From Escherichia coli (GTDB taxonomy: Bacteria; Pseudomonadota; Gammaproteobacteria; Enterobacterales; Enterobacteriaceae), in NCBI RefSeq assembly GCF_030013595.1, contig NZ_CP122768.1: DNA of 64,000 bases; one strand, written 5' to 3'. A program made the translations under genes and the position numbers. Positions 17,221-17,628 of the stretch are shown in pieces. Positions within the stretch are counted from its first letter, which is position 1. Every line of letters starts with the position of its first letter. The notes under the pieces were generated by a model that was not told the DNA's origin, did no database searches, and saw only the letters and a program-made list of their open reading frames with translations.

Positions 17221-17628
17221 ATGGTGATGGGGATGATCGTGTTACGGCGTTATCTGTAAACAGGTTTTAAACGTGTCATTCGCATTCGTGATTTAGTTGT
17301 GTGATTAAGCTGTAGGTTTTGGCGTTGTTGTTGATTTGCATTGCCAGGAAGCGTTCTGGTTGCGTTTCTGGTGTTTTGTTCGAATGTTCTGTGGATCCTT
17401 TTCCCTTCAGGCTTTTCTCGTCGTCCATGTCGTTTTTAAATCCATTCATGCTGTTGTTGCGTGTTTTGCTGCTGTGTGCAGGATTATCTTTTCGTTCCGG
17501 GATGGTTTGTTCCGTTTCAATCACTCTTAATCAGAGAGTTGTAGCATTGCTCAATGCCGGATGCCGTAAAGTTTTACCGCGTTGATGAATGATGTGAAGT
17601 CAAGCCAAATCAACGGAGATCTCTCATC

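What the first reader, a model, noticed from the sequence alone, without database searches (positions are those of the whole stretch)
17571..17628. Conserved about 40-nt element upstream of YagK/YfjJ-like genes (second copy at 24592-24640)
TTACCGCGTTGATGAATGATGTGAAGTCAAGCCAAATCAACGGAGATC ends at the start codon of the frameshifted paralog. A near copy, TTACCGCCTTGATTAATGATGTGAACCGAAGTCAACGGAGATC, lies between the paralogs at 23978 and 24761. A shared 5' leader or recombination scar like this suggests common regulation or duplication by recombination at this element.
Basis: seen in the sequence. Interest (0 to 1): 0.4.

Follow-up and report, generated by a model that had tools for sequence, protein, structure and literature searches.

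The report
Conserved control element heading island HUH-nuclease genes
A short non-coding DNA element, repeated in front of related nuclease-like genes in a common E. coli genomic island, is real and kept intact by selection. It most likely is a protein-binding control site, but what it does has not been shown.

Summary
Copy A (17564-17628) ends at the ATG of an 'inovirus Gp2'/YagK-YfjJ gene. That gene is frameshifted here by an A7-to-A6 slip. Copy B (24584-24643; conserved block 24566-24650) lies between a weak YagK-like gene and a hypothetical gene followed by alpA. The two copies share about 68 nt at 75% identity, with unrelated flanks, so they are not part of a longer duplication.

In other E. 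coli the canonical order is A, Gp2 gene, B, leader, hypothetical gene, alpA. B stays 90-97% identical while the sequence on either side of it is swapped or diverged. Its diversity (0.02-0.09) is at or below that of the neighbouring coding sequence.

The element is a 12-bp palindrome (GTAAA-NN-TTTAC), an invariant core (TAATGATGTGAA) and TCAACGGAG, which is the ribosome-binding site in A only. The palindrome occurs four times in the window against 0.5 expected, each time in the 8-kb stretch that holds these genes. No conserved RNA structure, Rfam match or sigma-70 promoter was found. The Gp2 protein has an HUH nuclease / origin-binding fold.

The element occurs in about 35% of complete E. coli genomes. 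It is absent upstream of K-12 yagK and yfjJ and of distant homologs.

Best reading: a DNA-level protein-binding control module. Main rival: the recognition or nick site of the HUH proteins.

The parts
17549..17628 (+). Element copy A: the whole conserved block 5' of the Gp2-family gene
   Evidence: Across 61 unique upstream sequences, mean pairwise identity jumps from 0.6-0.7 to 0.9-1.0 at 17549-17563 and stays high into the gene. The part similar to copy B is 17566-17633.
17564..17579 (.). Palindrome A: CCGTAAAGTTTTACCG, core GTAAA-GT-TTTAC at 17566-17577
   Evidence: The 12-bp core is unchanged in 34 of 35 unique variants from 87 copies. The outer positions vary without covariation. It is an exact match to GTAANNNNTTAC.
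17584..17599 (+). Core A: GATGAATGATGTGAAG. The commonest variant elsewhere is GATTAATGATGTGAAG, as in copy B.
   Evidence: AATGATGTGAA is identical in A and B. The longer TAATGATGTGAA is identical in the commonest A variants and in B; this window's copy A has G at the first position.
17610..17628 (+). TCAACGGAG plus spacer. GGAG (17615-17618) is the ribosome-binding site, 10 nt before the ATG at 17629.
   Evidence: Read from the sequence. Nearly invariant among the A variants.
17629..18359 (+). Gp2-family (YagK_YfjJ_C) HUH-fold gene, frameshifted in this window at the A tract 17842-17847
24566..24650 (+). Element copy B: the whole conserved block
   Evidence: Common to loci with different upstream genes and with two unrelated downstream leaders. 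Identity 0.90-0.97 against 0.33-0.50 in the leader. Diversity 0.019 / 0.086 / 0.028.
24584..24599 (.). Palindrome B: CGGTAAAACCTTACCG
   Evidence: The centre is polymorphic (AACC or AAAC) while the arms are kept.
24604..24619 (+). Core B: GATTAATGATGTGAAC
24625..24643 (+). TCAACGGAGATCATTCACC: an RBS-like segment with no start codon after it. The aligned position is CTG here and TTA in the other leader type.
24651..24790 (+). Variable leader (type 1) between copy B and the next gene. Other E. coli carry an unrelated type-2 leader of about 190 nt.
24791..25366 (+). Hypothetical 191-aa gene, probably a degenerate YagK/YfjJ paralog lacking the first His and the Tyr motif
   Evidence: No Pfam or NCBIfam hit. 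hhalign against the family profile gives E = 0.0022, probability 12.9%, with RVDLRFP~RILLRLP, HYHV~EYHV and IxxAW~ILDAW colinear. The AlphaFold model is unusable, pLDDT 41.
25435..25668 (+). AlpA-family gene, last gene of the unit
   Evidence: Pfam PF05930, E = 2e-10. A Gp2-like gene and alpA sit side by side in every distant locus checked: alpA directly follows the Gp2-like gene in Brenneria, Providencia, Morganellaceae and L023, and precedes it in L012.
23978..24544 (+). 188-aa YagK-like gene upstream of copy B: an alternative cassette to the Gp2 gene
   Evidence: Pfam PF11726 at 19.9 bits, below the 25.8 cut-off, and PF23343 E = 4e-5. HAH and YLAK motifs are present. In 18 of 80 metagenome loci and in L008, copy B instead follows the Gp2 gene.
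23880..23899 (.). Site C: CCGTCTGTAAGTTATTACCG, about 80 nt upstream of the YagK-like gene. A partial third copy (palindrome region only).
   Evidence: B versus C local alignment p = 0.014; A versus C p = 0.11. Also present in CFT073.
16771..16782 (.). Site D: perfect palindrome GTAAA-TC-TTTAC in the ORF-free region upstream of copy A
   Evidence: Present at -810 to -910 in 45 of 79 related loci. Not more conserved than its surroundings.
13033..13713 (-). HTH_11 + WYL regulator gene of the island. A candidate binder of the palindromes; this is inference only.
   Evidence: Pfam. A 40% homolog occurs in the Providencia locus that also carries GTAAAGTTTTACC.

Best explanation
The element is a DNA-level cis-acting control module of about 65-85 nt. 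It heads successive HUH-family (YagK/YfjJ / 'inovirus Gp2') paralogs in the backbone of an E. coli genomic island.

It has four parts:
1. A 12-bp palindrome, GTAAA-NN-TTTAC, of the size and symmetry of a binding site for a dimeric protein.
2. A variable spacer of 6-8 nt.
3. An invariant core, TAATGATGTGAA.
4. TCAACGGAG(A/G)TC.

The proposed mechanism is that an island-encoded DNA-binding protein occupies the palindrome and core at both copies, and at the weaker sites C and D. The candidates are the HUH-fold proteins themselves, which have origin-binding-domain folds, or the HTH-WYL regulator. Binding would place the Gp2-family gene and the downstream hypothetical-gene/alpA unit under common control.

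In copy A the 3' part also serves as the ribosome-binding site. There the core can pair with the start-codon region, which would damp translation of read-through transcripts. Copy B descends from the same ancestral [element + gene] unit but has lost its start codon, so what is preserved in B is not translation initiation.

**Shown here:** existence, significance, discreteness, low diversity, palindrome enrichment, lack of RNA covariation, and the HUH fold of the adjacent protein.

**Inferred:** protein binding, the identity of the binder, and the regulatory outcome.
For: - A-to-B similarity is far above chance and confined to about 68 nt with unrelated flanks.
- The canonical order is A, Gp2 gene, B, leader, hypothetical gene, alpA (L008 and 18 of 80 metagenome loci).
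- B is 0.90-0.97 identical between loci whose leaders are 0.33-0.50 identical.
- Among 12 type-1 loci, B diversity is 0.019 / 0.086 / 0.028. The leader reaches 0.28 and the coding sequence is about 0.1.
- The start-codon position of B has decayed in two different ways (CTG, TTA) while the 65 nt upstream stay intact.
- GTAANNNNTTAC occurs 4 times in the window against 0.53 expected, with 0 of 100 shuffles reaching 4.
- In 287 kb of related loci every match lies at D, A or B, where about 4 random matches were expected.
- The palindrome core is invariant while the outer positions vary without compensation. RNAalifold gives -2.5 kcal/mol and no covarying pair. This fits sequence readout on DNA rather than an RNA helix.
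- Copy A folds with the core paired to the start region, z = -2.2 to -3.35.
Against: - No sigma-70-like promoter is found in or next to either copy, so the transcriptional logic is unknown.
- No binding protein is identified.
- Palindrome C is imperfect, and D is no better conserved than its surroundings.
- The element was not detected outside Escherichia-type islands. The comparative evidence therefore comes from one closely related lineage and is not phylogenetically independent.
- High conservation of copy A is continuous with that of the gene. Only copy B gives independent evidence of constraint.
Confidence: 0.45

Rival explanations
1. The element is the cognate recognition or nick site (origin-like) of the island's HUH endonucleases. 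The short inverted repeat would be the recognition hairpin or binding site, and the adjacent invariant core would carry the cleavage site. This is the layout of rolling-circle double-strand origins, of oriT sites, and of the inovirus (+) origin that lies just upstream of gene II. Initiation and termination at such sites could also explain why mosaic junctions fall at the element's edges.
For: - It matches PF23343 Rep/G2P.
- H-x-H and YxxK are conserved in every full-length member aligned; two C-terminally truncated members lack the YxxK region.
- The element is strictly next to these genes: A before Gp2-243, C before the YagK-like gene, B before the degenerate paralog.
- The pattern is an invariant asymmetric core beside an inverted repeat, conserved at DNA level with no RNA covariation.
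- Junctions of swapped segments lie at the left of A and on both sides of B.
- A distant homolog has an iteron-like array, 22 bp x 3.5, upstream.
Against: - The conserved block runs through the ribosome-binding site to the start codon in A, which is typical of an expression signal.
- B is bounded by two junctions 78-85 nt apart rather than by one nick point.
- Two direct copies flanking only the 0.7-kb gene make an odd replicon.
- The segment just 3' of the repeat, where many relaxases nick, is the most variable part of the element.
- There is no evidence that these islands replicate or that the proteins cleave DNA.
Confidence: 0.2
2. The element acts as RNA, as a 5' leader that controls translation or stability. 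In copy A the core (5' arm, 17581-17594) pairs with the start-codon region (17625-17638), as in fold-back inhibition of IS10-type transposase mRNAs. Alternatively, the element could be the target of an antisense RNA or of the island's ProQ/FinO-family protein.
For: - Copy A folds more stably than shuffles, with the AUG inside the stem. z = -3.35 for the window copy. The common variants give -2.3 and -2.15, and the 58-nt hairpin alone gives -3.05.
- The island encodes a ProQ/FinO protein.
- In copy B, CUCCGU (24577-24582) can pair with ACGGAG (24627-24632).
Against: - There is no common structure for A and B, and no compensatory change.
- Copy B does not fold better than shuffles (z = +0.39, -0.19, -0.84), has no start codon, and is still the better-constrained copy.
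- A synonymous T-to-C change in the 3' arm is not compensated.
- There is no Rfam match.
- No antisense promoter or terminator is evident.
Confidence: 0.12
3. The element has no function of its own. It is the relic 5' end left by an old tandem duplication of [leader + gene]. It looks conserved only because the island family is young, and because replacements of neighbouring segments happened to end there, so that it works at most as a short homology linker for module exchange.
For: - B keeps a decayed start codon and 'ATG AAY'-like bases, so it did arise as a gene 5' end.
- All copies found are in Escherichia.
- The two leader types could reflect one replacement event rather than gradual divergence.
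Against: - The proteins have diverged to about 20% identity or less, while the 65 nt keep 75% identity.
- Within one leader type, B diversity (0.02-0.09) is below that of the adjacent leader (up to 0.28) and at or below the coding sequence.
- Three independent junctions coincide with the element's edges.
- The longest identical runs between A and B (15 and 12 nt) are, from general knowledge of RecA requirements, too short for efficient homologous recombination.
Confidence: 0.15

Closest known systems
Operator / autoregulatory binding sites in front of HUH Rep genes (for example the AAV P5 Rep-binding element, geminivirus iterons, pMV158 RepB repeats). Named from general knowledge.
   Same: A short symmetric or repeated DNA site lies immediately 5' of an HUH-fold gene. 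It is repeated at more than one position and conserved as sequence rather than as an RNA structure.
   Different: No binding is shown. The sequence is unrelated to any of those sites. The element also contains the gene's ribosome-binding site. A second copy heads a catalytically degenerate paralog.
Rolling-circle double-strand origins and the inovirus (+) origin upstream of gene II
   Same: An inverted repeat with an adjacent conserved asymmetric sequence sits next to a gene for an HUH + Tyr protein.
   Different: No nick site is known. There are two direct copies 0.9 kb apart around the gene in the canonical arrangement. The location is a chromosomal island rather than a phage or plasmid. The element is not conserved in distant homologs.
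Fold-back inhibition leaders of IS10/IS50-type transposase mRNAs
   Same: In copy A an upstream segment can pair with the start-codon region of a mobile-element gene.
   Different: The pairing is not conserved in copy B. There is no covariation and the transcription start is unknown.
Phage lambda nutL / nutR (short conserved leader elements in two operons)
   Same: Two short, similar elements with unrelated flanks lie at the heads of successive transcription units of one mobile element.
   Different: The hairpin is only 4-6 bp, is imperfect in copy A, and shows no compensatory changes. No N-like protein is evident.

Membership tests
Any Rfam family (cis-regulatory RNA or sRNA) | Covariance-model match at or near the gathering score | tested here: not met
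   The only gathering-level hit in the window is an attI/AAC_AAD leader at 54868-54939. A permissive search of 16100-26000 gives nothing at either copy.
Structured RNA leader | A consensus secondary structure shared by the copies, with compensatory changes | tested here: not met
   RNAalifold on 14 A and B variants gives -2.5 kcal/mol and 0 pairs with changes on both sides. B does not fold better than shuffles.
Sigma-70 promoter | -35 and -10 hexamers with 16-18 nt spacing | tested here: not met
   The consensus scan finds no + strand site in 16100-18000 and no site at all in 23600-25500.
Intrinsic terminator | G+C-rich hairpin followed by a T run | tested here: not met
   No site at either copy. 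The B hairpin is followed by CCTTGATT.
Palindromic operator of a dimeric DNA-binding protein | Inverted half-sites conserved as sequence, recurring near the regulated genes more often than chance | tested here: met
   GTAANNNNTTAC occurs 4 times against 0.53 expected, with 0 of 100 shuffles reaching 4. The core is invariant and the centre variable. All matches in 287 kb of related loci are at D, A or B.
Palindromic operator of a dimeric DNA-binding protein | Demonstrated binding by a cognate protein | not testable with these tools
   Needs EMSA, footprinting or ChIP. The literature on YfjR gives no site.
Rolling-circle origin / HUH nick site | Adjacent gene encodes an HUH + catalytic-Tyr protein | tested here: met
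Rolling-circle origin / HUH nick site | Inverted repeat plus a specific cleavage site used by the protein | tested here: inconclusive
   An inverted repeat and a conserved adjacent core exist. Cleavage cannot be tested here. The bases just 3' of the repeat are the most variable.
IS200/IS605- or REP/RAYT-type unit (HUH gene flanked by hairpin ends) | Subterminal hairpins at both ends of a mobile unit, with copies scattered in the genome | tested here: inconclusive
   In L008-type loci the gene is flanked by A and B in direct orientation. Copies are found only inside these islands, next to the same genes.
YagK/YfjJ (PF11726) gene family, for the genes flanking the element | Pfam match above the gathering score | tested here: met
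   For the Gp2-243 gene after copy A: 116.6 bits against a 25.8 cut-off.
YagK/YfjJ (PF11726) gene family, for the genes flanking the element | Pfam match above the gathering score (gene 23978-24544 and gene 24791-25366) | tested here: not met
   The 188-aa gene scores 19.9 bits, below 25.8, although its motifs are present. The 191-aa gene has no Pfam hit; it is related only by profile-profile comparison (E = 0.0022, probability 12.9%).
   Absent upstream of K-12 yfjJ and yagK. An nhmmer profile finds nothing significant in 91 kb around 16 distant loci.

The most novel reading that the evidence does not exclude
The element is the DNA site on which the chromosomal-island HUH proteins (YagK/YfjJ/'Gp2' family, function unknown) act: an origin or nick/recognition site. 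These very common E. coli islands would then carry a rolling-circle-type initiation system. That system would replicate or mobilise the excised island, or drive exchange of gene cassettes at the element's edges.
Probability: 0.18. Interest if true: 0.65.

Novelty: new member of a known kind. Interest (0 to 1): 0.35.

Why it matters
YagK/YfjJ-family genes and the adjacent alpA gene sit in the backbone of islands that carry toxin-antitoxin, anti-restriction, fimbrial and resistance genes in about a third of complete E. coli genomes. Their function is unknown. A discrete, constrained DNA site that heads these genes gives a concrete handle for experiments: probes for binding and nicking assays, and targets for reporter mutagenesis. 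Those experiments could establish what the HUH-fold proteins do and how the Gp2-to-alpA unit, and hence island excision, is controlled. If the element proves to be only an operator of a lineage-specific regulator, the finding is ordinary.

Tried and rejected
- **PapR sRNA.** CFT073 copy B lies next to the pap operon, but PapR is encoded outside the pap island.
- **P. aeruginosa AlpA binding element.** That AlpA is a larger, Q-like protein whose site is GGGACG. It is not comparable to the 77-aa AlpA here.
- **Sigma-28 promoter.** TAAAGTTT in palindrome A matches the -35 consensus as I recall it, but nothing resembling the -10 follows and copy B lacks the -35 match. Checked by eye.
- **RfaH ops, CRP, IHF, LacI/GalR-type operators, phiX174/pC194 CTTGATA nick motif.** Each was compared by eye from memory. 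The resemblances fall in the variable part of the element or in only one copy.
- **Small ORFs in the element.** The ATG-ATG-TGA mini-ORF and the minus-strand peptides have no ribosome-binding site or are not conserved between A and B.
- **Similarity beyond the palindrome.** Site D and the bases just before the ATG at 24791 are no more similar to copy A than chance.
- **L023.** An eye-picked resemblance upstream of its Gp2-like gene was not recovered by the nhmmer profile.
- **Providencia.** The 13-mer GTAAAGTTTTACC between its Gp2-like gene and alpA scores only E = 2.3 in the profile search. It is kept as a lead only.
- **Genome contigs protein scan.** It returned only 2 loci.
- **Structure of the 191-aa protein.** The prediction failed, pLDDT 41.
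- **Core TAATGATGTGAAS.** It is not enriched elsewhere in the window.

Full report
**1. Observation**

The two quoted strings are in the window at 17574-17621 and 24594-24636. A 25-nt degenerate pattern built from them matches only these two places, with 0 expected in shuffles. A local alignment of a typical copy A with copy B scores 67, against 15.7 +/- 3.2 for 2000 shuffles.

blastn of 2.3 kb around A against 2.1 kb around B finds only 17566-17633 versus 24586-24648. That is 68 columns at 75% identity, with gaps totalling 5 nt. tblastx finds nothing beyond the element and a few adjoining bases. The similarity is therefore real, discrete and not the visible tip of a longer duplication.

**2. 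Context**

The window is an E. coli chromosomal island next to yicL/nlpA. It is essentially identical to strain 2009C-3133.

Copy A ends at the ATG (17629) of an 'inovirus Gp2 family' gene (Pfam YagK_YfjJ_C, E = 1.5e-33; Rep/G2P, E = 2.2e-7). In this window the gene is broken by an A7-to-A6 slip at 17842-17847.

Copy B lies 40 nt after the stop of a weak YagK-like gene (23978-24544; 19.9 bits, below the Pfam cut-off). It is about 150 nt before a hypothetical gene (ATG 24791), which is followed by an AlpA-family gene (25435-25668).

**3. Anatomy**

Aligning 35 unique A variants (87 copies) and 16 unique B variants (22 copies) shows four parts:
- A 12-bp palindrome. It is GTAAA-GT-TTTAC in A, unchanged in 34 of 35 variants. 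It is GTAAA-AC/AA-CTTAC in B. The outer bases vary without compensation.
- A variable 6-8-nt spacer.
- An invariant core, TAATGATGTGAA.
- TCAACGGAG(A/G)TC.

The window's copy A is a minor variant. The commonest A (GATTAATGATG) is even closer to B.

In A, GGAG (17615-17618) lies 10 nt before the ATG and is the ribosome-binding site. In B, the aligned start position is CTG in one leader type and TTA in the other. B is therefore a former gene 5' end whose start codon has decayed while the 65 nt upstream have not.

**4. Canonical arrangement and mosaicism**

In L008 and in 18 of 80 related metagenome loci the order is A, Gp2 gene, about 120 nt, B, leader, hypothetical gene, alpA. In the window the sequence after the Gp2 gene is interrupted near 18447 by an Mrr-like nuclease gene, IS remnants and an H-NS gene. 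Copy B is preceded here by the alternative YagK-like cassette, as in CFT073.

B is followed by two unrelated leaders: type 1, about 150 nt, as here; and type 2, about 190 nt. The two re-converge about 20 nt before the ATG. Upstream of A, identity among 61 unique sequences is 0.6-0.7 and jumps to 0.9-1.0 at 17549-17563. Three junctions of swapped or diverged sequence thus fall at the edges of the element.

**5. Constraint**

| Comparison | Copy B | Leader | Hypothetical gene |
|---|---|---|---|
| Identity, type-1 versus type-2 locus | 0.90-0.97 | 0.33-0.50 | 0.70-0.97 (mostly 0.85-0.97) |
| Pairwise diversity, 12 unique type-1 loci | 0.019 / 0.086 / 0.028 | up to 0.28 | about 0.1 |

The flanking proteins are about 18-28% identical or unalignable. 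Copy B therefore gives evidence of purifying selection that does not depend on its neighbours. The conservation of copy A is continuous with that of its gene and is less informative.

**6. Palindrome enrichment**

GTAANNNNTTAC occurs four times in the 64-kb window (16771, 17566, 23886, 24586). The expectation is 0.53, and 0 of 100 shuffles reach four. All four lie in the 8 kb that holds these genes.
- Site C (23880-23899) is about 80 nt upstream of the YagK-like gene. It resembles B over the palindrome region (p = 0.014).
- Site D is a perfect GTAAA-TC-TTTAC in the ORF-free region upstream of A. It is present in 45 of 79 related loci, although it is no better conserved than its surroundings.
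- In 287 kb of related loci every match is at D, A or B, where about four random matches were expected. These loci share descent, so this is not an independent test.

**7. RNA tests**

There is no Rfam match. RNAalifold on A plus B gives -2.5 kcal/mol and no compensatory pair.

Copy A alone folds better than shuffles. z is -3.35 for the window copy, -2.3 and -2.15 for common variants, and -3.05 for the 58-nt hairpin. The core (17581-17594) pairs with the start region (17625-17638). Copy B does not fold better than shuffles. A synonymous change in A's 3' arm is not compensated. An RNA role is possible for A but cannot explain what A and B share.

**8. The genes**

The 191-aa protein has no family hit. 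It aligns colinearly with the family profile (E = 0.0022, probability 12.9%): RVDLRFP~RILLRLP, HYHV~EYHV, IxxAW~ILDAW. It lacks the first His and the Tyr motif. Its structure model failed.

**9. Distribution**

Copy A occurs in 1894 and copy B in 1876 of 5426 complete E. coli genomes, at 90-100% identity. In the rows listed, A is always under or next to a Gp2-family gene and B is always unannotated.

Elsewhere the searches found:
- Only five PLSDB records, all Escherichia.
- One IMG/VR contig.
- Nothing upstream of K-12 yfjJ or yagK, which share a different motif.
- Nothing significant with an nhmmer profile in 91 kb around distant homologs from Brenneria, Providencia, Morganellaceae and others.

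One lead remains. Providencia has the identical 13-mer GTAAAGTTTTACC between its Gp2-like gene and alpA. It also has a 40% homolog of the island's HTH-WYL regulator. After allowing for the choice of word, this is not significant.

**10. Mechanism**

I commit, at 0.45, to a DNA-level protein-binding control module. A palindromic operator plus an asymmetric core would be bound by an island protein and give common control to the Gp2 gene and the hypothetical-gene/alpA unit. Copy A additionally supplies the ribosome-binding site and a start-occluding hairpin.

Shown: discreteness, constraint, palindrome enrichment, sequence-type rather than structure-type conservation, and decay of B's start codon. 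Inferred: binding, the binder and the effect. The weak points are that no sigma-70 promoter is found and that all evidence comes from one lineage.

The main rival (0.2) is that the element is the recognition or nick site of the HUH proteins, on the pattern of rolling-circle origins and the inovirus origin upstream of gene II. It is favoured by the fold, the catalytic motifs, the strict adjacency and the junctions at the edges. It is weakened by the ribosome-binding site inside the element, by two junctions rather than one, and by variability just 3' of the repeat. The two readings overlap if the HUH proteins bind the site to autoregulate.

An RNA-leader role (0.12) and a functionless relic or linker (0.15) are less likely, for the reasons given above.

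**11. Novelty and interest**

I found no description of the element (Rfam; literature searches on YagK/YfjJ, AlpA and YfjR). It is best filed as a new member of a known kind: a lineage-specific cis-acting control site. Interest is moderate (0.35). Its value is as a handle on the unknown function of a widespread HUH-fold gene family next to alpA.

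Noticed in passing
window 16600-17270: About 670 nt with no ORF of 50 aa or more, between a hypothetical gene and the small minus-strand ORF upstream of copy A. It is rich in short repeats (TTTTACTAAGYAT x2, TTTCCTGA-type motifs). It carries palindrome D (16771) and a degenerate copy followed by GCTAAATCAAC (16910-30), which resembles GCCAAATCAAC of copy A.
   Followed up: partly
window 17842-17847: The Gp2-family gene is broken by a one-base deletion in a poly-A tract, A6 here against A7 in strain 2009C-3133 and L008. This could be a slippage-prone site or a sequencing error.
   Followed up: yes
window 24602-24754: A 50-codon ORF starts inside copy B. It is in the same frame as the following gene and is separated from it by a single TAG (24752-24754). 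The position aligned with copy A's ATG is also in this frame.
   Followed up: partly
window 54868-54939 (-): Rfam AAC_AAD_leader / attI match (70.6 bits), pointing to a class 1 integron further along the window.
   Followed up: no
window 40824-41123 and 62605-62904: A 300-nt direct repeat, 97% identical, 21.8 kb apart. It may mark copies of an insertion sequence bracketing the resistance region.
   Followed up: no
window 26492-26836 (-): A ProQ/FinO-family gene (Pfam E = 9e-23) just downstream of alpA. Such proteins usually have a partner structured RNA, which I did not find.
   Followed up: no
L018 1821-1897: A 22-bp unit repeated 3.5 times (94% matches) lies 100-180 nt upstream of a distant Gp2-like gene (33% identity). 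It is an iteron-like array with a sequence unrelated to the element.
   Followed up: partly
L003 4475-4500, L004 about 7130-7115 (-), L019/L020 about 1935-1965: K-12 yfjJ- and yagK-type genes share a different upstream motif, GATAGGTAATATATA. In L019 and L020 it is part of a long palindrome, GGTAATATATA-TTG-TATATATTACC, which again contains GGTAA/TTACC half-sites.
   Followed up: no
L014 3620-3632: Providencia carries GTAAAGTTTTACC, identical to palindrome A, between its Gp2-like gene and alpA. The same locus has a 40% homolog of the island's HTH-WYL regulator.
   Followed up: partly
L012-L016, L023: AlpA is 65-72% identical across genera, while the adjacent Gp2-like protein is only 30-41% identical to the E. 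coli one. Constraint on the two neighbours is very unequal.
   Followed up: no
window 14875-14888: AATGATGGAATGTC, which matches the core of copy A (AATGATGTGAAGTC) at 12 of 14 positions, lies in the divergent intergenic region between the GTPase gene and the hypothetical gene at 14985. It may be chance.
   Followed up: no
L007 (JAEYLX010000008.1): A contig labelled 'MAG: Bacillota bacterium' carries an E. coli-type Gp2 gene with copy A at 87% protein identity. This is probably a binning contaminant.
   Followed up: no
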